A DNA stretch of 64,000 nt from Candidatus Woesebacteria bacterium RBG_16_42_24 (GCA_001792115.1 MGFX01000002.1:4965-68964), one strand, 5' to 3'. Counted from the stretch's first letter, positions 1-57,386 are shown. Made by a program: numbers and translations. Notes: generated by a model from the letters alone, not told the origin.

Positions 1-483
1 GGTTGAATCGACAACATTTTTGAAATTAACAAAAACTCCTTGTGTAATTTCGCCCCGAAGATAGGCCTTTTCTTTAGGTTCAGTGGTACCCAAAAGAACC
101 TCCGTCATCAAGTTAAAAGTTTTAGCATCGGTCCATTGGGCTTTTCCATCGTGCTCACTCTCGTGCCTTTTAAGGTCTTCTTCGTTATCAGCTCGAAAAC
201 GCTTGTGGCAAGTTTTGCACTCAACCAAAGGGTCCGTCAGGGCTTTAAGGTGACCTGATTTATCCCACACAATTGGGTTCATAATGATTGCAGCATCAAG
301 CCCAACAACGTCGTCGCGGGAATAAACCATGTCCCTCCACCAAGCTTTTTTGATATTGTTTTTTAGCTCAACCCCGACCGGTCCATAATCCCAGAAACCC
401 CCAAAGCCACCATAAATTTCACTTCCGGGATAAATAAATCCCCGCCTTTTGGCTAGAGCGACTATTTTCTCCATTAAATCCAT
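1..483 (-). CDS. glyQS: Glycine--tRNA ligase (class II, dimeric GlyQS type), N-terminal part; the gene continues past the window start
   Basis: My own translation of the minus strand from the ATG at 483..481 gives MDLMEKIVALAKRRGFIYPGSEIYGGFGGFWDYGPVGVELKNNIKKAWWRDMVYSRDDVVGLDAAIIMNPIVWDKSGHLKAL..., a classic GlyQS N-terminus. It is missing from the ORF track because it runs off the window edge. Confidence 0.85.
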   Translation of the reverse strand, partial: MDLMEKIVALAKRRGFIYPGSEIYGGFGGFWDYGPVGVELKNNIKKAWWRDMVYSRDDVVGLDAAIIMNPIVWDKSGHLKALTDPLVECKTCHKRFRADNEEDLKRHESEHDGKAQWTDAKTFNLMTEVLLGTTEPKEKAYLRGEITQGVFVNFKNVVDST

Positions 484-506
484 TACGACTTAATTATAGA
501 GCCAGA

Positions 507-1652
507 CTACGATTTTTTAAACAACCTACGCTGCGCCCGCTTACCTTCCGGCGCCCATTTTGACCTAAACCTGCTTTTTCTCGCTAATTCCGTCTCCCTA
601 TCCAAGGCTTCTTTTTCGGCTTCCTTAAGATAACCAACCAAATATTCTGCTCTGCCGAGGTGCTCCTGGCCAAGAAAATCCGAATCAATCTTATGTTCCA
701 GATGCTGCCTCCAACTTCTGATAAAACTGCTGCCGACCCATATAGTGTGAATTTTGTCATTCAAGCTTCCCCTGAGATAGGCGAAAAGTATACACGAAGG
801 CAGGGAAAAATTGCCGTCCCTGTCCAGCATTATCGTGCCCAGTTTATTCTGATAAGCCGCGATATCATATTGAAATACGGACTCGAGTTTTCTGGGTCCT
901 GAAATGTACCTTGCCCTATTTGGTACTCTAATCTCAAGGGCCCACCAAGCTTCCCCGTCGCCGAGTCTCCCTGCCACATCAAATGTGGTTTCGGTGCTAT
1001 TCTTATCCACGACCACTCCGTCGAACTGCGCAAGCTGTTTTTTGTCCTTACCAAGAAGAATAACATTCGGGACTACCCTTCCGTTTAGACTGGGAGGGTC
1101 TGCAATTGTCCACTTCCCGATTACCAACGCATTCTCCACCAGATACCTAATATTTTGACCCACCCTTCCCGTCCCGTCGCCACTTAGCTGGGCAAAGCTT
1201 TGGCCAAAATTTGTAGAATAGAGTCTGTCGACTTCTGAAAACAAATCCGCGAGGGCAGGAAAACTAGGCCAGGTCCTTTCATTCCCCAGAAATGGTGTCT
1301 CCGGCGGCTCGGTTAGACCCTGATAATTCTCGGCCAGACCAGAATGGGTTGGAAATGTATGCTGCGAAACTACTCTTAGGCTATGCCTTACTTCTGAAAT
1401 TGCGTTTGCGAGTTTCGAATTACCGGGATCCGGTGGAAATTTATTCGACCAAAGACCCATGACAATCCTTTCACAGGTGCGACCCAAGCCAGAGGTCAAA
1501 TTTCTAATCTCAACAAGCCTCTTTTGTTCATCGCCAACTGCCCGGTAAGGGTTTTCCGGCCCGTTTCTGAAAGGAACCCCCGAAAGAGGATACTGGCCAC
1601 CTATTTTTCTCTCCCGAGACATTTTCGGCCTAAGGATAGTGGGCAGGAGCAA
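507..1652 (-). CDS. Hypothetical protein (381 aa) with a possible GIY-YIG-like nuclease motif near the C-terminus
   Basis: Long ORF whose composition is richer in G/P/R than the neighbouring genes. The C-terminal segment FAYLRGSLNDKIHTIWVGSSFIRSWRQHLEH loosely fits the GIY...YIG...R...H/E spacing. I recognise no other family. Confidence 0.35.
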   Translation of the reverse strand: MLLPTILRPKMSRERKIGGQYPLSGVPFRNGPENPYRAVGDEQKRLVEIRNLTSGLGRTCERIVMGLWSNKFPPDPGNSKLANAISEVRHSLRVVSQHTFPTHSGLAENYQGLTEPPETPFLGNERTWPSFPALADLFSEVDRLYSTNFGQSFAQLSGDGTGRVGQNIRYLVENALVIGKWTIADPPSLNGRVVPNVILLGKDKKQLAQFDGVVVDKNSTETTFDVAGRLGDGEAWWALEIRVPNRARYISGPRKLESVFQYDIAAYQNKLGTIMLDRDGNFSLPSCILFAYLRGSLNDKIHTIWVGSSFIRSWRQHLEHKIDSDFLGQEHLGRAEYLVGYLKEAEKEALDRETELARKSRFRSKWAPEGKRAQRRLFKKS

Positions 1653-1765
1653 TTCCTACAAGAGGAAAAAAGCGGCGGGAAAACCGGGCACACTGCCTCA
1701 TATTGCCGCTTGGTAATTGATCCGAAAATTGAGAAACTTAAGAAAGACTTTAAACCCTTACCTAA

Positions 1766-2851
1766 GTGAAGTTAAAAATCTTACTGCCCATATTCTTTGC
1801 GACTTTTGTCCTCGCATTTTTGACGGGATATTTTGCCTCCATGTTCTCCAAGATATTCATTAAGAAAGTATCAATACAGGAAGAATCTCCCCCAATTACC
1901 ATTGACGATAAAGCACTCGACGTTTTGCTCATTGGCTACGGCGGAGCGGGCCACGATGGAGGAACCCTTAGCGACACGCTAATAGTGGTGCATGCTGGCT
2001 TTGAAAACAAAAAAATAACATTTATTTCGGTCCCCCGCGACCTTTGGGTTCCAATTCCTTACGATTGGGACAATCTTCAGAATTACAAAATTAATATGGC
2101 CCATGCAATCGGGGTTGACGACCTAAGATACGCCAATAAAAAACCTGAGTTTAGAAAAGAAGCCGGCGGGGGAAATATGGCCAAGCATGTAGTGGGCCTT
2201 GTAACGGGATTGACTATCGAGAACTTTGTCTCGGTTAATTTTGAGGGGCTAGTCAAGGTTATTGACCTATTGGGAGGGGTGGAAGTAGATGTACCCGTTG
2301 CCTTCGACGATTATCTTTATCCAGTAAAGGGTAAAGAAAACGAAACCTGCGGATTTAGCGGCGAGGAAATCGCCGAGTTCCACGCAAGCTATACCGGATT
2401 TGACCTTGAAAAGCAGTTTACTTGCCGCTATGAGCACCTGCATTTTGATAAAGGGAAAACTGTTATGAATGGGGACAGCGCCCTAAAATTCGTTCGCTCA
2501 AGACACTCCAGCCAGCACGGGGGAGACTTTGCCCGCTCAGAAAGACAATACGCACTCCTCACCGGAATTAAAAATAAAGCGGTTTCACTCGAAGCTGCAA
2601 AAAAACTCGCAAGTATTCTTGATGAGATTTCAGATAGTGTCCGCACCGATTTAACCCTGGAACAAATTACAAGCTTCCGAGGGCTCCTCTTAAAAGAGGG
2701 GGAGTATAAAGTTTCTTCAGTTTATTTGACCGAACAAAACGTATTAAATGCGGGCAGAAGCTCCGACGGCCAATTCATTTTGGTGCCAAAAGAGGGAATA
2801 AATAAATGGGGTAAAATTCAGGAGTATATTGCAACCGAGCTTGCAAAATAG
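1766..2851 (+). CDS. LytR-CpsA-Psr (LCP) family cell-envelope polymer phosphotransferase
   Basis: N-terminal TM segment, then LLIGYGGAGHDGGTLSDTLIVVH...FISVPRDLWV...NFEGLVKVIDLLGGVEVDV, which are hallmark LCP motifs. Confidence 0.85.
   Translation: MKLKILLPIFFATFVLAFLTGYFASMFSKIFIKKVSIQEESPPITIDDKALDVLLIGYGGAGHDGGTLSDTLIVVHAGFENKKITFISVPRDLWVPIPYDWDNLQNYKINMAHAIGVDDLRYANKKPEFRKEAGGGNMAKHVVGLVTGLTIENFVSVNFEGLVKVIDLLGGVEVDVPVAFDDYLYPVKGKENETCGFSGEEIAEFHASYTGFDLEKQFTCRYEHLHFDKGKTVMNGDSALKFVRSRHSSQHGGDFARSERQYALLTGIKNKAVSLEAAKKLASILDEISDSVRTDLTLEQITSFRGLLLKEGEYKVSSVYLTEQNVLNAGRSSDGQFILVPKEGINKWGKIQEYIATELAK
2812..2851 (+). repeat. 40-bp direct repeat, copy A. It forms the functional 3' end of the LCP gene. 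Partner copy at 5183..5222.
   Basis: taaaattcaggagtatattgcaaccgagcttgcaaaatag versus taaaattcaagagtatattgcaaccgagcttgcaaagtaa is 37/40 identical. Both copies read KIQEYIATELAK*, and the differences are synonymous or stop-to-stop. Confidence 0.7.
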
Positions 2852-2960
2852 CGGGCCCGCCAGGATTCGGCAATTTTGTAATCAAAATTGGTTATTTTCC
2901 TGGAAGAGCGTAGGTATTTGCAGCCCCGGATGGAAAGTATTCGAACCTATTATGTGTGGG

Positions 2961-4079
2961 TTAGGCCTTTGATTTGCGAACTATGATTATGGACATTGGA
3001 AAGAAGAAATATGGGCGAACATCTAGGATATTGAATTGTGGAAGATATTGTTTGAGGGTTTGTAATAGTGAGGTAACTAGATTGCTCCAGTCGGCAGTTT
3101 TGGTTATGGGTTTTGGAGTTATACCCTTTTTGAAGTAGTAAGGTGAATTCTTGATGGCTTGAAGGAAATCGTCCGAAAGTTGGGTACCCGCGGAGTAGGG
3201 CTTAGATAAGCGTTCTATTAGGAAGTATGCCCATTCTGAGGGAACTAGAAATCTTCCCTCACCATTTGGATTGAGAACGCGAAGGGATTCTACCAGTGAA
3301 CATGTGAATTCAGTGAAAGCCTCGGGTTCAGTTTGTCCGAGGCCTTCACGGCCATAACTGGGGTCAGTTAGGATCCAATCGACTAGATTGTTGGGGAGGG
3401 GTATATGTGTAGCATTGAAGTGAGTAATTTCAGGTGTTTTTAGTTTAATTTGTAATATGTTTGGGAGGTTGTTAAGATGTTTTTGAAATTCGGAGAGATT
3501 TTTGTCGATCGCGTAACTAAAATTACCTGGAGCTGGTTTCTTATAAAGTAAATCGTTGGCGATAATCCGGGACGGCGCTCTTAGCAAGCAAATATTGGCA
3601 AGTAAATTGCCTGGTCCGGCGAAGGGGTCTAGGACGGTACAATTTTGAGTAAATTGGATATTGTGGAGCATAAACCATATAGCGCCCCCACTCATGGAGT
3701 AGCGTCTGGATTGCCGGTCTGGAATGAGTCGGAGATCTCCGTTTGTGTTTTGATAAAAGTAGCGTTTGTGATTATTAATGTGATTATAAAATACGATATT
3801 GCTGACGGCTGTTTGGAGAGTAGATAGATTGGATTGATCTGAAAGCTTAAGGTAGGCGTTTCGGGCATGGAAGTATTTATTTTTGTAATTCTCGAAAGCG
3901 TGGGGATACTGAAGCTGCTCCATAACAGTGTCGGCCACCTCAGACAAATTATCGGCGGTTTTCATTACAGAGTTATCTGTGATGCGCCGATTAACTTCTG
4001 ATTTTTCAGCTTCTGTTAAAGAGTCTAGGGGGAAAAGTTGTGTTTCTAGTTTATTAAAATCTATTTGAGGGAGGTTCAT
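2961..4079 (-). CDS. SAM-dependent methyltransferase, UPF0020/Trm11-like (N2-G RNA or N6-A/N4-C amino-methyltransferase type)
   Basis: Motif I is VLDPFAGPGNLLANI. About 85 aa later there is motif IV, LTDPSYGREG (compare the DPPYGR of Trm11/RlmL). The coding strand is C/A-rich, unlike its neighbours. Confidence 0.6.
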   Translation of the reverse strand: MNLPQIDFNKLETQLFPLDSLTEAEKSEVNRRITDNSVMKTADNLSEVADTVMEQLQYPHAFENYKNKYFHARNAYLKLSDQSNLSTLQTAVSNIVFYNHINNHKRYFYQNTNGDLRLIPDRQSRRYSMSGGAIWFMLHNIQFTQNCTVLDPFAGPGNLLANICLLRAPSRIIANDLLYKKPAPGNFSYAIDKNLSEFQKHLNNLPNILQIKLKTPEITHFNATHIPLPNNLVDWILTDPSYGREGLGQTEPEAFTEFTCSLVESLRVLNPNGEGRFLVPSEWAYFLIERLSKPYSAGTQLSDDFLQAIKNSPYYFKKGITPKPITKTADWSNLVTSLLQTLKQYLPQFNILDVRPYFFFPMSIIIVRKSKA

Positions 4080-4117
4080 TAATTATAGTGTGAGGATATG
4101 AGAATTATACTATTGTG

Positions 4118-4146
4118 GCAGGGACTGGTGAACTTTGTCAGGAACT
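4118..4146 (+). repeat. 29-bp direct repeat, copy 1, about 39 nt upstream of the methyltransferase start. Candidate promoter/operator.
   Basis: GCAGGGACTGGTGAACTTTGTCAGGAACT versus the copy at 4605-4633, GCAGGGGCTAGTGAACTTTGTCAGGAACT, is 27/29 identical. On the transcribed strand this is followed by TATAAT-like hexamers before the ATG at 4079. Confidence 0.5.
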
Positions 4147-4195
4147 TCTTCTCTAATTATCGAGGTGTTTAACAAAGGTGGGACTTGCGTGTAAA

Positions 4196-4516
4196 TCACT
4201 TTGTGCCTCTCGCGATTTCTCTGTAGTAAATTACTCGTATTCCTTTATATGTTTCTCCGTAAGCAAAAGAGGGAAGAGATGTCTCTATTCCAATAACTTC
4301 AACAAATTTTCCCACATCTTTTTTCCTTAGATTACCAACGACATCGGCACCACCAACATGATATTCCGTTCCGCACCCTTCAGGTATCATACAATTCGTT
4401 ACCCTGGATAGAACACCCTGCCTCACTATTATCAATCCTGAATTAAGGATAAAGATTACAAAAGTAATGAGAAGCAATCCGGGAATCAAAATAAACAGTA
4501 TGAATTTTTTGGACAT
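4196..4516 (-). CDS. Hypothetical small membrane-anchored protein (106 aa)
   Basis: ORF with an N-terminal hydrophobic helix (FILFILIPGLLLITFVIFIL) followed by a roughly 75-aa soluble region. No recognisable family. Confidence 0.4.
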   Translation of the reverse strand: MSKKFILFILIPGLLLITFVIFILNSGLIIVRQGVLSRVTNCMIPEGCGTEYHVGGADVVGNLRKKDVGKFVEVIGIETSLPSFAYGETYKGIRVIYYREIARGTK

Positions 4517-4604
4517 AAAACTATTTTATCACGTCGACAGTGTTTGATTCTCTGTGGGGGTCATACGCACTCTGAAGATAATTGAAGTTTCAGGCTAAAT
4601 ATCT

Positions 4605-4633
4605 GCAGGGGCTAGTGAACTTTGTCAGGAACT
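4605..4633 (+). repeat. 29-bp direct repeat, copy 2, upstream of the small ORF 4196..4516
   Basis: See the copy at 4118-4146. Both lie in the 5' regions of consecutive minus-strand genes. Confidence 0.5.
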
Positions 4634-4659
4634 GGTATAGATACGAGAGAGTTAAAATA

Positions 4660-5127
4660 TCACTCGGAGGCATCTTGTCTAGCTAAATCAACAGGCTTTA
4701 CATCTCTAACTACCTGCTCCAGAAAAGTTTGGTCTTTTTCTTTTAGTTCTATTCCTGAATGCATATCCCCAAGAAGTTTTCCTACACGCTCTACTGTTTC
4801 CTCCAAATACCTAGCAATTTCTCTTAAATCTTCTGGATGTTCTCTAGCCATCCACGCTTGCCAGGATTCATAAGCTTTTATTGCAGATTCTTCTCCTGAC
4901 ATTGCTGCTGAAGCCAGCTTTAAACCGACAATTGACTTCCTCCTTAATCCAAATGCACGCTCGAATAAATCACTGCTTTCCATTATATGCATTATACCAT
5001 CTGAGGCTATTTTGCAGGCCTTAATAGCCACACTTCGAACTCTCTGGCATAAAATAAGCTCTTTTGAGATTGATGACATCCTCCGCGGACTAAAAGTCCG
5101 CGGTTTCCTTTCAAAGGAGGATGACAT
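4660..5127 (-). CDS. Hypothetical alpha-helical protein. The N-terminus and start codon are supplied by the repeat element, so the true start is uncertain (alternative M at 5079).
   Basis: The first 16 codons, MSSSFERKPRTFSPRR, are encoded by repeat-element copy 1, and a stop lies immediately upstream. The segment CQRVRSVAIKACKIASDG weakly resembles helix 2 of four-helix-bundle proteins found in 23S rRNA intervening sequences. Confidence 0.35.
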   Translation of the reverse strand: MSSSFERKPRTFSPRRMSSISKELILCQRVRSVAIKACKIASDGIMHIMESSDLFERAFGLRRKSIVGLKLASAAMSGEESAIKAYESWQAWMAREHPEDLREIARYLEETVERVGKLLGDMHSGIELKEKDQTFLEQVVRDVKPVDLARQDASE

Positions 5128-5177
5128 ATCAGTTTCAATTCATCCGCGAATTAATAATTCGCGGTGTTCTTGAAATC
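5069..5177 (+). repeat. Structured interspersed repeat element, copy 1 (about 109 nt), containing two GC-stem hairpins
   Basis: tgatgacatcctcc-[ccgcggac taaaa gtccgcgg]-tttcctttcaaaggaggatgacatatcagtttcaattcatcc-[ccgcgaatta a taattcgcgg]-tgttcttgaaatc. This aligns with copies at 56901-57004 and 51770-51894 (the latter reverse-complemented). Confidence 0.7.
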
Positions 5178-5182
5178 TGTTA

Positions 5183-5222
5183 TAAAATTCAAGAGTATAT
5201 TGCAACCGAGCTTGCAAAGTAA
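5183..5222 (+). repeat. 40-bp direct repeat, copy B. Displaced relic of the lytR 3' end.
   Basis: See copy A. There is no upstream ORF: the sequence tga lies in frame 9 nt upstream. Confidence 0.7.
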
Positions 5223-5249
5223 TTTATTCCAGAATCCCGATGTTGTTTT

Positions 5250-6251
5250 TTAGGGCGTGGGGGTTGGCGTCTTGGTGGCCGAAGGAGTAGCTGTTGGGGT
5301 AGGCGTGCTTCCCGACTTTGCCGTTCCAACGATTATTTCTACGTCAAACTCGCTACTTTCGGCAAGGTCACTTTCCTGTCTTACAATTTTATAGCCGCTC
5401 ATAGCCTCTTTCACCGCCTCATATACCGCCTCGGGAATATCCTTCTTAAGACTCACTTCGGAATCAGTATAGTCGTATGATTCCGCATTCGCTGTTTCAA
5501 TTGTCTCAAACCCCTGAGACTTAAGCGCAGTTTCTACCTTTCCGGCCTCTCCCGGAATTCCGGAACCGTTAAGAATCGAAACTTTGTATTCTGATAAATC
5601 GACCTCATCTGAAGGAGTCGGAGTAAGCGTTTCTTGAGCCGATGGCGTCGGGGTCCCTTCTTTGGCACCTTCCTCTCCACCCGAAACCTTAGTTTTGTAG
5701 TAATAAAAGCCTCCTGCGACAAGTCCGAGAATTAGAACCAAAATAAAAACTATAATAAAAACTTTCTTTCCCTTTCCTCCCCCTCCATCTTCAGGCATTG
5801 TCAAGTCCAAGGTCGGGATTTCTTCGGGTTTTACTTCGCCCAATGTCTCTGTGGCCTTTCCTGTATCTTCTAGAGATTCAACTTCAGGAGCTTCCTCTTT
5901 AGGTTTTTCGGCTTTTGGCTCTTCCGTTGGTGTTTCTTCTCCCCCTTCCTCGACCACCTCTGCCCTCCAAGCAGGCACGTTAGAAACATCTACCGCCTTC
6001 TCTGGGGTTTCGGCTTCCGGAGTTTTCGTTTCTTCTTTTACACCGATTGACGAGCTCTCCTCAGGGGTTCCGACAGATGTCTCCTCGGCTACAATTTCTT
6101 CTTTGGCTTTTGAAGTCTTACTCTTAGGAGGCATAAATACATTTTTACGCAAGGGCTTGCCCTTGTCAACCCCATTTGACGAAGTTAACTTGAATATTTC
6201 TTTCTCGAGGTCCCGAAAGCTCAACCAAGACAACCCTCTGCCAAGTTCCAA
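5250..6251 (-). CDS. LytR_C-domain (cell envelope-related transcriptional attenuator C-terminal domain) membrane protein with an acidic low-complexity N-terminal region and a PT-rich tail
   Basis: Single TM (FIIVFILVLILGLVAGGFYYY), then YKVSILNGSGIPGEAGKVETALKSQGFETIETANAESYDYTDSEV, which is LytR_C-like. The C-terminus is TPTPTATPSATKTPTPTP. The annotated N-terminus overlaps yjbQ by 85 nt, and the real start may be the internal ATG near 6134. Confidence 0.55.
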   Translation of the reverse strand: MELGRGLSWLSFRDLEKEIFKLTSSNGVDKGKPLRKNVFMPPKSKTSKAKEEIVAEETSVGTPEESSSIGVKEETKTPEAETPEKAVDVSNVPAWRAEVVEEGGEETPTEEPKAEKPKEEAPEVESLEDTGKATETLGEVKPEEIPTLDLTMPEDGGGGKGKKVFIIVFILVLILGLVAGGFYYYKTKVSGGEEGAKEGTPTPSAQETLTPTPSDEVDLSEYKVSILNGSGIPGEAGKVETALKSQGFETIETANAESYDYTDSEVSLKKDIPEAVYEAVKEAMSGYKIVRQESDLAESSEFDVEIIVGTAKSGSTPTPTATPSATKTPTPTP

Positions 6252-6561
6252 GAATTAGTTTCCCTGTCGAAACCGGAACAGAAACTGACGGCCCAATTAT
6301 AGACGCCATTATGTGCTCTCCGACGTGGGACGGGTCGTGTGGATGGCGATATGATCCTTTTGGAAACATCTTCTCTATTGCCTCGAGAAAATCAATATCG
6401 GTTCCCGGGTCAAGGTCCATCGTTGTTAGGGCACAAGTTGTGTGCAAAATAAAAAGGTTGCAGAGTCCTTCTTTGAAATTTTCTTTAGAGACAAGAACAT
6501 TTAAATTCTCAGTGATATCAACAATTTCTTTCTTTCCTTTGGTCCTAACAGAAATTTCCAT
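6166..6561 (-). CDS. yjbQ: YjbQ/UPF0047 family protein (secondary thiamine-phosphate synthase-like)
   Basis: HTTCALTTMDLDPGTDIDFLEAIEKMFPKGSYRHPHDPSHVGEHIMASIIGPSVSVPVSTGKLILGTWQRVVLVE matches conserved YjbQ-family blocks. Confidence 0.8.
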   Translation of the reverse strand: MEISVRTKGKKEIVDITENLNVLVSKENFKEGLCNLFILHTTCALTTMDLDPGTDIDFLEAIEKMFPKGSYRHPHDPSHVGEHIMASIIGPSVSVPVSTGKLILGTWQRVVLVELSGPRERNIQVNFVKWG

Positions 6562-6607
6562 TCCTTAAAGAATATCAAACGGTTCTCTCTTTCCTAATTT
6601 AGAATTT

Positions 6608-6994
6608 TTACTTTCTCTTACCGGACGAAATAATTGCCGCAAATATTATTGCTAATAAAACTTCAATCATTAACAGATCTGATTCAAATTTTGCATTTTG
6701 AGATAAGTAATAGGCGAAAATACTCAACTGTGAAACCAGGATTAAAAGAAGTATGGGAAATTTGTATAAATTGTTATGCGATATTTCCCAAATAAACCCT
6801 TTTTTATCTACTTTCATACCATCCCTTTTATCTAATAGAGCCATAATCAAAATATTCATAAGCGAAACGGCAAAGACGCTCCCTATAAAAATGATGAAAG
6901 AAGAAAAAATGTAGAAAAAACCCTTATTAATTGAATATCCAGCTACGTAGGTAAATATAAGAGCAAAAAACCAAATTATAATTTTATTAATCAT
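6608..6994 (-). CDS. Hypothetical integral membrane protein (128 aa, about 4 TM)
   Basis: Hydrophobic ORF with no recognisable motif. Confidence 0.4.
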   Translation of the reverse strand: MINKIIIWFFALIFTYVAGYSINKGFFYIFSSFIIFIGSVFAVSLMNILIMALLDKRDGMKVDKKGFIWEISHNNLYKFPILLLILVSQLSIFAYYLSQNAKFESDLLMIEVLLAIIFAAIISSGKRK

Positions 6995-51692: not shown

Positions 51693-51769
51693 AAAATTCT
51701 TGTTTCATTTTCATTGAATTTTTCAAGAGGGGTCTCCTCTTTTTCTTTAGACATAATGGAATTATAGCA

Positions 51770-51894
51770 GCATTCGAGAAGACTGCCGATCTTCGGTCGG
51801 GAGATGAACCTGCCTGCCGGCAAGGCTGGTTGAACGCTGATATGTCATCCTCCTTTAGAGGGAACCCCATTCAAAGCGGGGAGGATGTCATAAA
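51770..51894 (-). repeat. Structured interspersed repeat element, copy 3 (about 125 nt, minus orientation), in the intergenic region
   Basis: The reverse complement reads tttatgacatcctccccgctttgaatggggttccctctaaaggaggatgacatatcagcgttcaacc...ttctcgaatgc, which aligns end to end with copy 2. Confidence 0.7.
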
Positions 51895-51933
51895 CTTACC
51901 AGATATGAGTTAAAAGTGTGGTGTTTAGCTATA

Positions 51934-56072: not shown

Positions 56073-57386
56073 CTAGGACACCCAATAGCCTCGCGAAAAG
56101 AGGGCGAGGGAAATTGCGGCTAAGAATAGTAATGTCAAATAAACCAACCCTTTAACCAACTTTGATTTTTTGTTAAGCCAAAGGGCCATAAGAATATAGG
56201 CGGGGAAAAGAATAAGAACATAGCGTGGGAAAGAGGAGAAACTTCCGGAAAGGGGCGGGATTAGGTATCCCGCCGCTAGAAACAAGGAATAGCCAAGTCT
56301 CAATTTAAAAAACGACCATACACCAAGGATTCCAAATATAATAGCCGAAGCTATTTCAAGATAGGTAGTAAATACTATCGGGAAATAATTGTAATTAAGG
56401 CTGGGAAGAACCTTGAAAAAATATCTATAAAAAACTTGCGGGAGAAGAATTAGAGTACTTGAGCGCTGCTGCCCAAAAATCGAAACATTATGAACGAATT
56501 CAAGCGGGTCCCCGGTTATCCTATATAAATAGTACATATAGGCCGCCAGGCCTAGAGGGATAAGAAGCAGAGAAACAATTTTTTTAAGGTTGACGGCAGT
56601 GATTAGTGAATACCCGCCAGCAACGCTTGAAGCGTAGCTTCTACGGGCTGGGTGATTGGTGAATGGTGACTTCTTGTAAAAATACTCGACTGCAATTGCC
56701 GGAACAAGTGCCAATGCGGTAATTCGGGTTGCGGTTGCAAAAGCTCCAAGAACTCCTGCAAAAATCCAGCTCCTTTTTCTTGCAAAGTAAAACGACCAAA
56801 CGATTAAGGCCAGTGTTAAGCTCTCCGTATAAAAAGCCCCGAAATAAAAAGACGTTGGAAAAAGGATTAATAAAAGAAGAGTCATCTTTGCAATATTTTC
56901 TTTATGACGTCCTCCCCGCCTTAAAAGGCGGGGTTTCCCTAAGGAGGACGACATATCAGCGTTCAATTCATCCCCACCCTCCGGGGCGAGGTTTTCTTGA
57001 ATGCTGTTATAATCAAGCCGTATAAGTTTCCACAAACCAATTAAACCTACAAGGAATGATAAGTTAGAAATAAGAAGTCCGGTAAAAGCTATCGTAATAT
57101 ATTCGGGATTTATCAAAGACGCGGCGATACGGGTGACAAGCGGGAAAAGGGGAAAAAAGAAATAGGTCAAAGGCTGATACCCTTGGTGGGCAATCGCCGC
57201 ATAGTGCTCCCCGTCAAAATTCAGCCAAGACCAAAAATAAGGATTTTTAAGATAGTTTGACAAACCTCCTCCAAGAAAATCCTTTTGAAAAGGAAAAAGG
57301 CCAGCCGCTAAAAAAACTACTCCAAAAAGAAAGAGTCTCCAGGTGACAAAACTTCCCAAAATAAATCTCCAATTATCGCCTTTCAC
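56073..57386 (-). CDS. Polytopic membrane protein (GT-C/DUF2029-like) carrying two in-frame repeat insertions
   Basis: A hydrophobic protein interrupted by the hydrophilic stretch NSIQENLAPEGGDELNADMSSSLGKPRLLRRGGRHKENIAKM, encoded by repeat-element copy 2. A second segment, SPFTNHPARRSYASSVAGGYSLITAVN, is encoded between GTGATT-type direct repeats. Confidence 0.45.
   Translation of the reverse strand: MKGDNWRFILGSFVTWRLFLFGVVFLAAGLFPFQKDFLGGGLSNYLKNPYFWSWLNFDGEHYAAIAHQGYQPLTYFFFPLFPLVTRIAASLINPEYITIAFTGLLISNLSFLVGLIGLWKLIRLDYNSIQENLAPEGGDELNADMSSSLGKPRLLRRGGRHKENIAKMTLLLLILFPTSFYFGAFYTESLTLALIVWSFYFARKRSWIFAGVLGAFATATRITALALVPAIAVEYFYKKSPFTNHPARRSYASSVAGGYSLITAVNLKKIVSLLLIPLGLAAYMYYLYRITGDPLEFVHNVSIFGQQRSSTLILLPQVFYRYFFKVLPSLNYNYFPIVFTTYLEIASAIIFGILGVWSFFKLRLGYSLFLAAGYLIPPLSGSFSSFPRYVLILFPAYILMALWLNKKSKLVKGLVYLTLLFLAAISLALFSRGYWVS
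56599..56669 (+). repeat. Pair of GTGATTRGTGAAT(GGTGA) direct repeats flanking a ~40-nt insert, inside ORF 56073..57386
   Basis: gtgattagtgaata at 56599-56612 and gtgattggtgaatggtga at 56652-56669. The 18-mer also occurs identically at 53071-53088, in a different gene. Confidence 0.55.
56901..57004 (+). repeat. Structured interspersed repeat element, copy 2 (about 104 nt), inserted in frame within ORF 56073..57386
   Basis: tttatgacgtcctcc-[ccccgcc ttaaaa ggcgggg]-tttccctaaggaggacgacatatcagcgttcaattcatcc...gttttcttgaatgc. Confidence 0.7.

What the first reader, a model, noticed from the sequence alone, without database searches (positions are those of the whole stretch)
2812..5222. ~2.3-kb insertion at the lytR 3' end flanked by a 40-bp imperfect direct repeat that rebuilds the gene end; cargo is a UPF0020-like methyltransferase
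The last 13 codons of the LCP gene (KIQEYIATELAK*) recur 2.37 kb downstream at 5183-5222 with only synonymous or stop-codon differences, and that second copy lies in no ORF. This is the signature of an element that integrated into the 3' end of a protein-coding gene while carrying a replacement gene end. The cargo is an amino-methyltransferase (motif I VLDPFAGPGN, motif IV DPSYGR) whose strand composition differs from its neighbours, plus two small ORFs and internal 29-bp direct repeats. The segment ends on one copy of the RPE-like element. No integrase or transposase is present, so the mobilisation mechanism is unclear.
Basis: seen in the sequence. Interest (0 to 1): 0.65.

Follow-up and report, generated by a model that had tools for sequence, protein, structure and literature searches.

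The report
Integrase-less islet swapping the lytR gene end
A 2.3-kb strain-specific DNA islet carrying an orphan methyltransferase sits in the last codons of a cell-wall (LCP/lytR) gene of a groundwater Woesebacteria (CPR) genome. It brings its own copy of the gene end and pushes the old one downstream, and a sister lineage carries a different islet with the same ends at the same spot, so this is a small mobile-element family with no recombinase gene of its own.

Summary
Window 2812-2851 and 5183-5222 are a 40-nt direct repeat with 37/40 matches. Both copies encode KIQEYIATELAK*, and all three differences are synonymous transitions.

Relatives show that the 2.33 kb between the repeats is an insertion:
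- L021 has lytR followed 33 bp later by the convergent LytR_C gene.
- L024-L028 have only msrB there.
- About 70 species-level lytR loci have no duplicated gene end.

The strongest evidence comes from a sister lineage (L029/L030/L122/L023). It carries a different 0.66-kb islet at the same position, with the same ATELAK replacement tail, the same 29-31-nt internal repeat (D2) and the same roughly 41-nt right end. Its displaced original tail is of another type (AQGISQ) and still overlaps msrB. This indicates at least two integration events by one element family.

No recombinase gene lies in either islet, or within about -8 to +50 kb. The nearest known analogue is the CIME (att-flanked, integrase-less islet). 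C-terminal displacement by illegitimate recombination is the main rival.

The methyltransferase is real: the AF2 model has pLDDT 91 and motifs I and IV are present. It is not a housekeeping Trm11/RlmL. Its only relatives are domains inside giant multidomain proteins. An RPE-like hairpin MITE inserted secondarily at the right junction.

The finding is of moderate interest. I rate it a new variant of a known kind.

The parts
1766..2851 (+). lytR / LCP-family glycopolymer transferase gene, the target gene. Its last 19 nt (2833-2851, TELAK*) are islet-type.
   Evidence: Pfam PF03816 E=1.3e-33; NCBIfam TIGR00350. Relatives are homologous only up to 2832 (AQGISQ type) or 2855 (ATELAK type).
2812..2851 (+). 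Direct repeat copy 1 (attL-like): the functional gene end, KIQEYIATELAK*.
2852..4117 (-). MTase cassette: 3' spacer 2852-2960, MTase ORF 2961-4079, and promoter-like TTCACC-17-TATAAT at 4132-4104. It sits between the lytR stop codon and D2a, the position where L029 has D2 directly after the stop.
   Evidence: ORF; promoter scan 10/12; AF2 pLDDT 90.7 with a class I MTase fold; profile hits to DNA N4C/N6A MTases and to Trm11/Trm14; PADLOC mad2 E=2e-7; GC skew z=-4.1; comparison with L029.
4118..4146 (+). D2a, an islet-specific 29-nt repeat at a cassette boundary.
   Evidence: No hairpin forms.
4196..4516 (-). ORF106, a small protein with an N-terminal hydrophobic helix. It is an ORFan.
   Evidence: no family hit
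4605..4633 (+). D2b, the second copy of the islet-specific repeat.
4660..5127 (-). ORF155. Gene callers give 107, 123 or 155 aa. The true start is probably at 4983 or 5031, because the 5' part overlaps the conserved non-coding right end and the RPE-like element. It is an ORFan.
5033..5074 (+). Conserved right end of the islet (ACTTCGAACTCTCTGGCATAAAATAAGCTCTTTTGAGATTGAT). It is shared with the L029 islet and is not conserved as protein.
   Evidence: 34/41 identical to L029 8298-8339; 0 of 2000 shuffles reach that score; alignment A2.
5075..5182 (+). RPE-like two-hairpin MITE, inserted secondarily between the islet's right end (..ATTGAT) and repeat copy 2. It has two terminator-like hairpins and ends in TGTTATAA.
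   Evidence: L029 has ATTGAT|AAGATTCAGG uninterrupted. Other copies lie at 51760-51895(-), 56905-57010(+), L094 and L005. DNA fold z=-7.95; terminator scan.
5183..5222 (+). Direct repeat copy 2 (attR-like): the displaced former lytR gene end, now in no ORF. It lies 27 bp from the stop codon of the convergent LytR_C gene.
   Evidence: The position matches the empty site in L021.
5250..6251 (-). LytR_C-domain gene, the conserved right flank. Homology with relatives resumes exactly at its stop codon.
   Evidence: Pfam PF13399; blastn.

Best explanation
Window 2833-5182 is a small composite genomic islet. It belongs to a family of integrase-less integrative elements that target the last codons of lytR in a narrow clade of Rifle-aquifer Woesebacteria.

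The element carries a mimic of the lytR 3' end, an 'attP' of up to 39 nt encoding KIQE[Y/F]IATELAK*. A circular form recombines Campbell-style with the chromosomal lytR end, within the first ~20 nt (AAAATTCAGGAGTWTATYGC). The gene is then finished by the element's tail, and the old gene end is left as a dead copy on the far side.

The recombinase is not on the element. It is either a host or helper site-specific recombinase acting in trans, as for CIMEs and other decayed att-flanked islets, or RecA acting on the short homology after DNA uptake.

The cargo is modular. Cassettes are separated by the 29-31-nt D2 repeat. Here they are an orphan amino-methyltransferase with its own promoter and two ORFan small proteins.

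Shown:
- the insertion, with empty sites in relatives;
- two different islets with common ends;
- a displaced tail of a different type in the second lineage;
- absence of a recombinase gene.

Inferred:
- the circular intermediate;
- the trans-acting enzyme;
- the function of D2;
- the MTase substrate. A nucleic-acid amino-methylase is most likely, and DNA versus RNA is unresolved.
For: - Repeat and gene-end reconstruction.
- Empty sites in L021 and L024-L028.
- Second islet in L029/L030/L122/L023. Its left junction is ...TTTATCGC|AACCGAGCTTGCAAAGTAG followed by D2. Its right junction is ...GGAATTGAT|AAGATTCAGGAGTTTATCGC followed by GCAGGGGATTTCCCAGTAG, which is identical in type and position to the native tail overlapping msrB in L024.
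- The right ends of the two islets match 34/41, with 0 of 2000 shuffles reaching that score. The cargo proteins are unrelated.
- D2 occurs four times, only in these islets.
- The L029 lytR body is L024-like up to the 20-nt repeat and switches to islet type exactly at GC|AACCGAG, so there is no long donor tract.
- The three repeat differences are all synonymous. Both copies therefore diverged as coding gene ends rather than after a local duplication.
- The ATELAK tail is found only with islets.
- No lytR-end duplicate occurs in about 70 other species.
- No recombinase domain is found in the cargo or in annotated neighbours from -8 to +54 kb, except a Y1_Tnp.
- MTase composition is an outlier at z=-4.1.
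- CIMEs of 1.2-13 kb at the 3' ends of rpmG, rpsI and fda are a documented precedent (PMC7563491).
Against: - No cognate integrase-bearing element, circular junction or freshly excised site was found. Viral-contig scans for the att, D2 and right-end motifs were empty, and the MTase has no match in phages or plasmids.
- Only two islet types are known, in one genus-level clade from one aquifer, so 'family' rests on n=2.
- The 20-nt region where the crossover must lie has no obvious dyad typical of tyrosine-recombinase cores. The TTGCAA-N6-TTGCAA dyad in the tail lies outside the region shared with the L029 displaced copy.
- The window's displaced copy is itself ATELAK type. That requires either a native ATELAK allele, never seen without an islet, or an earlier integration.
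- The islet is fixed and nearly invariant in every contig of this population, so there is no sign of current mobility.
Confidence: 0.55

Rival explanations
1. C-terminal displacement by linear DNA. Transformed DNA from a relative, consisting of a lytR 3' part with an ATELAK tail plus downstream genes, was anchored by homology in lytR. It was joined illegitimately or by microhomology just upstream of the recipient's own gene end. This is homology-facilitated illegitimate recombination (HFIR), as proposed for Rhs, CDI and T6SS effector arrays. There is no dedicated mobile element and no recombinase.
For: - The architecture matches displacement: new tip, then cargo, then a conserved junction repeat plus the old tip, seen in L029.
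- The lytR tail types co-vary with what lies downstream.
- This population shows abrupt recombination boundaries. L004 is 99.99% identical to the window right of 1693 but only 82% identical left of it.
- The mechanism is described in PMC5361080.
- No integrase needs to be postulated.
Against: - The right junction (..ATTGAT|AA[A/G]ATTCA..) is identical in two lineages with different cargo and different displaced tails. Independent illegitimate joins should differ.
- There is no donor tract in L029 lytR upstream of the 20-nt repeat. HFIR normally needs anchors of more than 150 bp (literature, own knowledge).
- Both crossovers map to the same 20-nt recipient sequence. That fits a circular substrate better than a linear one.
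Confidence: 0.22
2. The element is not mobile. A single ancient local duplication of the lytR end created a permissive intergenic 'landing pad' between convergent genes. Strain-specific genes then accumulated there by unrelated events, and the locus spreads only by flanking homologous recombination.
For: - The lytR/LytR_C interval is generally variable: nothing in L021, msrB in L024, a 271-aa ORF in L022.
- Neighbouring genes also vary: ORF381, yjbQ and the 128-aa ORF.
- The islet is fixed in this population.
Against: - The displaced copies are of two different tail types in two different contexts: ATELAK next to LytR_C, and AQGISQ overlapping msrB. A single event cannot give both.
- L024, the sister of L029 at 88.8% identity, is empty, so the L029 insertion is recent.
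- The repeat differences are all synonymous.
Confidence: 0.1
3. The segment was moved by the HUH Y1 transposase encoded 3.3 kb upstream of lytR, using the RPE-like hairpins as ends (an IS200/IS605-PATE-like element).
For: - A Y1_Tnp gene lies nearby (L001 3993-4661).
- Strongly folding hairpins sit at the right border.
Against: - Hairpins are present at one end only.
- The L029 islet has the same junctions with no RPE-like element at all, so the RPE is a later insertion.
- IS200/IS605 transposition makes no 20-39-nt flanking repeat (own knowledge).
- No RPE-like sequence flanks the Y1_Tnp gene.
Confidence: 0.03

Closest known systems
CIMEs (cis-mobilizable elements) and other decayed att-flanked islets of streptococci (PMC7563491)
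   Same: They are 1.2-13 kb and carry only cargo genes. They are flanked by attL/attR direct repeats and integrated in the 3' end of a protein-coding gene (rpmG, rpsI, fda, rplL), whose end is rebuilt. They have no integrase, relaxase or conjugation genes. Tandem accretion gives composite arrays.
   Different: No cognate ICE or IME with an integrase for this att site is known here, and no tandem partner is present. The host is a CPR bacterium, where conjugative elements are essentially undescribed. In one lineage the element changes the last 5 residues of the target protein rather than restoring them. The internal D2-bounded cassette structure has no counterpart.
C-terminal displacement / orphan arrays of Rhs, CdiA and T6SS effector loci (PMC5361080 and references therein)
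   Same: A new 3' tip plus downstream genes replaces the old tip. The old tip survives downstream, preceded by a short copy of the conserved junction sequence. No recombinase is encoded, and HFIR has been proposed as the mechanism.
   Different: The swapped tip here is only 5-6 codons with no toxin domain and no immunity gene. The junctions are nucleotide-identical in two lineages. The cargo is unrelated to the target gene's function.
Tycheposons and tRNA-targeting integrative islands (bioRxiv 10.1101/2020.12.28.424599)
   Same: The attachment site is about 40 nt and is duplicated at both ends. The host genome is streamlined and lacks classic mobile elements. Degenerated cargo remnants accumulate at one hotspot.
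   Different: Tycheposons encode tyrosine or serine recombinases and target tRNA or tmRNA genes. Here no recombinase is encoded and the target is a protein-coding gene.
UPF0020/Trm11-RlmL m2G RNA methyltransferases and beta-class N4C/N6A DNA methyltransferases (for the cargo enzyme)
   Same: Class I Rossmann fold; motif I (V)LDPFAG(P/S)G; motif IV DP(P/S)YG. The order of motifs is colinear with Trm11/Trm14.
   Different: It falls below the Pfam and NCBIfam thresholds. It has no THUMP domain: the N-terminal 100 residues are all-helical in the model. It is not syntenic or housekeeping. Its own family occurs mainly as one domain of giant multidomain proteins alongside radical SAM, GNAT, Macro, HD, GDPD or intein domains.

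Membership tests
CIME / integrase-less att-flanked integrative islet | Flanked by direct repeats (attL/attR) created by insertion at a specific target, with an empty site in relatives | tested here: met
   The repeat is 37/40. Empty sites occur in L021 and L024. A second islet has the same junctions.
CIME / integrase-less att-flanked integrative islet | No recombination, mobilisation or conjugation genes on the element | tested here: met
   Pfam, NCBIfam, PADLOC and PHROGs scans of all three ORFs, and of the L029 ORFs, give no recombinase, relaxase or transposase hit.
CIME / integrase-less att-flanked integrative islet | Derived from, or mobilised by, a cognate ICE/IME whose integrase uses the same att site | tested here: not met
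   No integrase-bearing element was found at lytR in about 75 related loci. There is none within -8 to +54 kb. The att, D2 and right-end motifs have no match in IMG/VR. The search space was limited, because the metagenome scan was wasted on a pattern that was too short.
Tyrosine/serine-recombinase genomic island or prophage | Integrase gene next to one att site | tested here: not met
IS200/IS605-PATE (Y1 HUH transposon) | Subterminal hairpins at both ends and no flanking direct repeat | tested here: not met
   Hairpins are found only at the right border, and they are absent from the homologous L029 islet. A 40-nt flanking repeat is present.
Integron cassette array | IntI integrase with attI, and cassettes ending in hairpin-forming attC sites | tested here: not met
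   There is no integrase. D2 copies do not fold: z is +0.8, +0.9 and +0.35 for three copies and -1.7 (weak, 16 of 200 shuffles fold as well) for the fourth.
Rhs/CDI-type C-terminal displacement | Displaced 3' tip preceded by a copy of the conserved junction sequence | tested here: met
   In L029 a 20-nt junction repeat precedes the displaced QGISQ* tail.
Rhs/CDI-type C-terminal displacement | The tip encodes a toxin domain and is followed by a cognate immunity gene | tested here: not met
   The tip is 5-6 codons. The cargo has no toxin or immunity family hit.
PF01170 UPF0020 / TIGR01177 Trm11-type m2G methyltransferase | Score above the curated family threshold | tested here: not met
   PF01170 scores 15.4 bits against 22.3. 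TIGR01177 scores 27.4 against 316.6.
PF01170 UPF0020 / TIGR01177 Trm11-type m2G methyltransferase | N-terminal THUMP (or equivalent RNA-binding) domain, and a conserved housekeeping position | tested here: not met
   There is no THUMP hit. Residues 1-100 of the AF2 model are helical. The gene is absent from all relatives at this locus, and the protein has no close homologue.
Amino-methyltransferase superfamily ((D/N/S)PP(Y/F) class I MTases) | Rossmann fold with the motif I glycine loop and motif IV DPPY-like tetrapeptide | tested here: met
   VLDPFAGPGN and DPSYG are present. G155, G157, P240 and neighbouring positions are invariant across the family alignment A3. The AF2 fold is consistent, and the profile hits N4C/N6A DNA MTases and Trm11/Trm14.
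MADS defence system (mad2 methylase) | The mad2-like MTase is accompanied by the other mad genes | tested here: not met
   The mad2 profile scores E=2e-7 over residues 40-370, but no other PADLOC hit occurs in the islet or its neighbours.

The most novel reading that the evidence does not exclude
The two islets are instances of a previously undescribed recombinase-less cassette-acquisition system in CPR bacteria. The last ~20 nt before the lytR tail act as a dedicated docking site. D2 (GCAGGGRCTRGTGAACTTTGTNRGRAAC) is the cassette-joining site. A host-encoded recombinase, of Xer or another family, stacks tiny cassettes of 0.3-1.3 kb there. This would work like an integron without an IntI or attC hairpin, and each docking event can rewrite the C-terminal residues of the LCP enzyme.
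Probability: 0.12. Interest if true: 0.75.

Novelty: new variant of a known kind. Interest (0 to 1): 0.45.

Why it matters
CPR/Patescibacteria genomes are small, and their means of gene gain are poorly known. Classic ICEs, plasmids and integrons are essentially undescribed in them.

A site-specific islet family without an integrase, caught with an empty site, two cargo versions and a displaced gene end, gives a concrete and testable example of how strain-specific genes enter such genomes. Here they enter next to a very large cell-envelope glycan locus.

The finding also points to an uncharacterised amino-methyltransferase family. Otherwise that family is found only as a module of giant multidomain proteins, and its substrate (DNA or RNA) is open.

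The element is small, apparently fixed in this population and known from one aquifer, so its importance is moderate unless the trans-acting mechanism proves general.

Tried and rejected
1. Extended att homology. The 150 nt of lytR upstream of the repeat were compared with the 150 nt upstream of the right junction, in the window and in L029. Neither beats shuffles, so the repeat really is only 40 nt (window) or 20 nt (L029).
2. Terminal inverted repeats. The left end was compared with the reverse complement of the right end. This gave only 13/14 and 11/12 matches, at different positions in the two islets, and I judged them not meaningful.
3. Rfam search of 2700-5400 at E<=1: nothing.
4. D2 as an attC-like or HUH hairpin: it does not fold. 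D2 as a promoter: only D2a overlaps a good -35/-10 pair. The other copies do not (checked by eye in the sequence).
Only L122 was relevant. That scan was wasted.
6. L007 looked like an empty site in the gene table, but it aligns colinearly with window 1-3618.
7. L022, the third tail type (TTALSD): a remnant of the old lytR end before msrB is at best very degenerate. I did not count it as a third islet.
8. Foldseek of the MTase model against the PDB gave only generic class I MTases with TM 0.25-0.35. It cannot separate DNA from RNA specificity.
9. Homologue searches for the MTase and the ORF155 core in the 5.8-billion-protein set found only the proteins themselves. Phage and plasmid tblastn searches were empty.
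10. A related-loci search with the MTase alignment failed because no stretch was conserved enough.

Full report
**Observation**

The window comes from a Rifle-aquifer Woesebacteria (CPR/Microgenomates) population. More than 15 contigs from independent ENA, JGI and NCBI assemblies match window 1-12 kb at 99.9-100% (GCA_001792155.1 MGFZ01000041, GCA_001793175.1 MGHK01000010 and others).

The LCP gene lytR is 1766-2851(+) (PF03816, E=1.3e-33). Its last 40 nt, 2812-2851, recur at 5183-5222 with 37/40 identity. Both copies read KIQEYIATELAK*. The three differences are transitions and all are synonymous or stop-to-stop, with P about 0.04 for three random transitions. A 39-mer this similar is expected about 2e-10 times in 64 kb. 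Copy 2 lies in no ORF of 40 aa or more.

Between the copies, all on the minus strand, lie:
- a 372-aa ORF with methyltransferase motifs I and IV (2961-4079);
- a 106-aa ORF with an N-terminal hydrophobic helix (4196-4516);
- a 107-155-aa ORF (4660-5127).

A 29-nt repeat, D2, occurs at 4118-4146 and 4605-4633 and nowhere else in the window. Islet GC is 0.38-0.43 against 0.44-0.49 in the flanks. The MTase has the most extreme coding-strand GC skew of 57 ORFs (-0.316, z=-4.1).

**It is an insertion**

Close lytR homologues were found and their contigs fetched.
- In L021 (lytR 81% aa identity), lytR is followed after 33 bp by the convergent LytR_C-domain gene.
- In L024-L028 (Ca. Woesebacteria GWA1_42_12 and relatives, about 89% aa), the only gene in between is msrB. 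Its 3' end overlaps the lytR stop.
- blastn of window 1693-6300 against all fetched loci shows lytR homology ending at 2832 or 2855 and resuming exactly at 5250, the LytR_C stop codon. Nothing matches 2856-5183 except the RPE-like element.
- In the window, repeat copy 2 ends 27 bp before the LytR_C stop. That is where the native gene end sits in the empty-site relative.
- A scan of about 70 species-level lytR loci from GTDB genomes found no other case of a downstream duplicate of the lytR end.

**A second islet with the same ends**

The lytR C-terminal residues fall into discrete types among close relatives:
- ...FIAQGISQ or ...FIASGISQ, where the site is empty or followed by msrB;
- ...LITTALAD or ...LITTALSD, where a 271-aa ORF lies downstream;
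- ...[F/Y]IATELAK.

Every ATELAK allele comes with an insert. In L029, L030, L122 and the short L023, a lineage whose lytR is 81% identical in nucleotides to the window and 88.8% to L024, the layout is as follows:
1. The gene ends ...AAAATTCAGGAGTTTATCGC|AACCGAGCTTGCAAAGTAG.
2. The stop is followed directly by a D2-like sequence.
3. Next come a 77-aa ORF(-), a second D2-like sequence (24/31 to the window's D2a) and a 68-aa ORF(+).
4. Then comes a non-coding right end, ...ACTTCGAGCTCTCTGGCACGAAACAAGCTCGTTTGGAATTGAT.
5. Last comes AAGATTCAGGAGTTTATCGCGCAGGGGATTTCCCAGTAG. This is the displaced original gene end (KIQEFIAQGISQ*), still overlapping msrB exactly as in the empty L024.

The right ends of the two islets match at 34/41 positions, and 0 of 2000 shuffles reach that score. 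They are not conserved as protein. The cargo proteins of the two islets are unrelated. D2 occurs only in these islets among 224 fetched loci.

Site-by-site comparison shows that the L029 lytR is L024-like along the gene. It switches to the islet type exactly at GC|AACCGAG.

So two islets with different cargo share their left end (the replacement tail), their right end and an internal repeat. They sit at the same nucleotide of lytR. They displaced gene ends of two different types in two different contexts. That needs at least two integration events and a defined element family.

**The islet is composite**

In L029, D2 follows the stop codon directly. In the window, 1.27 kb (2852-4117: the MTase, its 3' spacer and its promoter) lies between the stop codon and D2a. 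ORF106 and ORF155 each follow a D2 copy. D2 therefore marks cassette boundaries.

D2 does not form a hairpin: three copies fold no better than shuffles (z from +0.35 to +0.9) and the fourth only weakly (z = -1.7). Only D2a overlaps a good promoter match, TTCACC-17-TATAAT upstream of the MTase. Its role is unknown.

**The RPE-like element is secondary**

Window 5075-5182 folds into two strong hairpin domains as DNA (z=-7.95). Both look like intrinsic terminators, and the element ends in CTGTTATAA.

Copies occur at:
- window 56905-57010(+) and 51760-51895(-);
- another Woesebacteria genome, L094;
- L005, just upstream of tRNA-Gly(CCC).

All copies are bounded by AT...AT. In L029 the junction ATTGAT|AAGATTCAGG is uninterrupted. 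In the window the element sits exactly between ATTGAT and AAAATTCAAG. It is a MITE-like insertion into the finished islet, not the islet's end.

One contig, L005, leaves the window's synteny inside this element (5111-5124) and runs into tRNA-Gly and unrelated genes. This is either a rearrangement between RPE copies or an assembly join. I could not decide which.

**No recombinase**

None of the cargo ORFs, and neither L029 ORF, hits a recombinase, transposase or relaxase family in Pfam, NCBIfam, PADLOC or PHROGs. Precomputed Pfam annotation from about 8 kb left of lytR to about 54 kb right of it shows housekeeping genes and a very large glycan-biosynthesis locus. The only mobility gene is a Y1_Tnp 3.3 kb upstream of lytR.

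Exact-pattern scans of IMG/VR for the att, D2 and right-end motifs were empty.

**Mechanism**

Both crossovers in L029 map to the same 20-nt recipient sequence. The right junction is identical in both lineages. There is no donor tract in lytR upstream of the repeat. The simplest model is Campbell-type integration of a circular islet. Its attP is a mimic of the lytR end, of up to 39 nt, with the exchange falling in AAAATTCAGGAGTWTATYGC.

This reproduces both structures:
- With an AQGISQ-type target, only 20 nt are shared and the tail is swapped. This is L029.
- With an ATELAK-type target, all 39 nt are shared. This is the window.

The all-synonymous differences between the window's two copies fit two gene ends that diverged while both were coding. 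A local duplication followed by neutral decay fits less well.

The enzyme is not identified. A trans-acting site-specific recombinase is one option, as for the integrase-less CIMEs that sit at the 3' ends of rpmG, rpsI and fda in streptococci (PMC7563491). RecA acting on short homology after DNA uptake is the other.

The main rival is linear-DNA C-terminal displacement by homology-facilitated illegitimate recombination, as proposed for Rhs, CDI and T6SS arrays (PMC5361080). It explains the 'new tip, cargo, old tip' layout and needs no recombinase. It does not easily explain identical junctions in two lineages or the lack of a donor tract.

An open point is that the window's displaced copy is itself ATELAK type. 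Either that tail is native to this lineage, in which case no islet-free example was found, or an earlier integration preceded the present one.

**The methyltransferase**

It scores below threshold for UPF0020 (15.4 against 22.3 bits) and TIGR01177 (27 against 317 bits). It has no PDB relative by sequence alone and no homologue other than itself among 5.8 billion proteins in the word-indexed search.

An exhaustive HMMER search found 21 relatives. The closest are single domains inside giant proteins:
- P0135, 3668 aa, 44% identity over the whole 372 aa, with MraZ, MbnB/TglH, GDPD, HD, an intein and a second MTase;
- P0136, with radical SAM;
- P0138, with NAGPA and GNAT;
- P0140, with Macro.

P0135 lies among housekeeping genes. 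These architectures resemble the 'polyvalent proteins' of mobile elements (PMC5512222), but that is a lead and not a tested membership.

With the family alignment A3, AF2 gives a confident model with pLDDT 90.7. It has a class I Rossmann core, an all-helical N-terminal 100 residues and no THUMP domain.

The profile hits two groups:
- beta-class N4C/N6A DNA MTases, as permuted two-piece matches;
- Trm11, Trm14 and 3tma RNA m2G MTases, colinearly.

Foldseek is unspecific. PADLOC's mad2 methylase model matches residues 40-370 at E=2e-7, but no other MADS gene is present. There is no match in phage or plasmid collections.

The protein is an amino-methyltransferase of an uncharacterised family. Whether it acts on DNA or RNA is unresolved. 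It is not a syntenic housekeeping Trm11/RlmL. ORF106 and ORF155 are ORFans.

**Verdict**

It is strengthened by empty sites and by an independent second islet.

The closest known kind is an integrase-less att-flanked islet (CIME-like). Membership is incomplete because no cognate integrase-bearing element is known.

I rate the finding a new variant of a known kind, with interest 0.45. It gives a clean, testable case of site-specific gene gain in a CPR genome and an orphan MTase family. The evidence rests on two islet types from one aquifer, and the islet looks fixed, with 2 SNPs across 10 contigs.

Noticed in passing
window 507-1769; L004 1-4571: There is a second strain-specific replacement just upstream of lytR. 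In the same-species contig MGHK01000010 (L004), a 123-aa ORF and a complete msrA precede lytR. In the window they are replaced by a 381-aa ORFan (507-1652, minus strand, GC 0.483, z=2.5, no family hit). Only the last 77 nt of msrA survive, at 1693-1769. Right of 1693 the two genomes are 99.99% identical. Left of it the tRNA-synthetase gene is only 82% identical, which is an abrupt recombination boundary.
   Followed up: partly
window 5075-5182(+), 51760-51895(-), 56905-57010(+); L094 2943-3054; L005 11305-11470: This is a family of ~108-nt two-hairpin elements (DNA fold z=-7.95). Each has two terminator-like stems and ends in CTGYTATAAT, an extended -10-like motif. The copies are bounded by AT..AT. 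The family is present in at least two Woesebacteria genomes. In L005 one copy sits 8 nt upstream of tRNA-Gly(CCC). The copy at 56905-57010 lies inside a predicted 437-aa ORF.
   Followed up: partly
L005 11347-12864 (contig ERZ27254767 k141_147098): One contig is identical to window 1-5111. It then departs inside the RPE-like element into tRNA-Gly, a 77-aa ORF and an FAD/NAD-binding oxidoreductase. This is either a rearrangement between RPE copies or an assembly join.
   Followed up: no
L001 3993-4661 (1.6 kb left of window position 1): A 222-aa Y1_Tnp (PF01797, IS200/RAYT-like) gene lies between mraZ and the tRNA-synthetase operon. It is absent from L021, L022 and L024. It is a possible mobiliser of the RPE-like hairpin elements, but no RPE copy flanks it.
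   Followed up: partly
window 6166-6994: yjbQ/UPF0047 (6166-6561) and a very AT-rich 128-aa membrane ORF (6608-6994, GC 0.287, z=-3) are present here but absent from L021. In L024-L029 a 207-aa ORF takes their place. The whole lytR-recO interval is a mosaic of lineage-specific genes.
   Followed up: no
window ~9500-54000: This is an unusually long minus-strand run of envelope-glycan genes, about 45 kb. It includes DUF4012, Bac_transf, NTP_transferase, many GT4/GT2 glycosyltransferases, PMT_2, Wzy_C, carbamoyltransferase and several SAM methyltransferases. The islet sits at its lytR end.
   Followed up: no
P0135 (L225 6001-17007), P0136, P0138, P0140: These are giant multidomain proteins of 1500-3700 aa that contain the MTase-family domain together with MraZ, MbnB/TglH, GDPD, HD, an intein, radical SAM, NAGPA, GNAT or Macro domains. 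P0135 is embedded between ispG and proS-rimP-nusA-infB in a 245-kb contig (GCA_041643075.1).
   Followed up: partly
L022 5595-6470: A third lytR tail type (…LITTALSD) is followed by a 271-aa ORFan that overlaps the lytR end, and then by msrB. AAAATTCAG and a degenerate lytR-end-like stretch occur just before msrB (6427-6480). This may be an older, decayed event of the same kind.
   Followed up: partly
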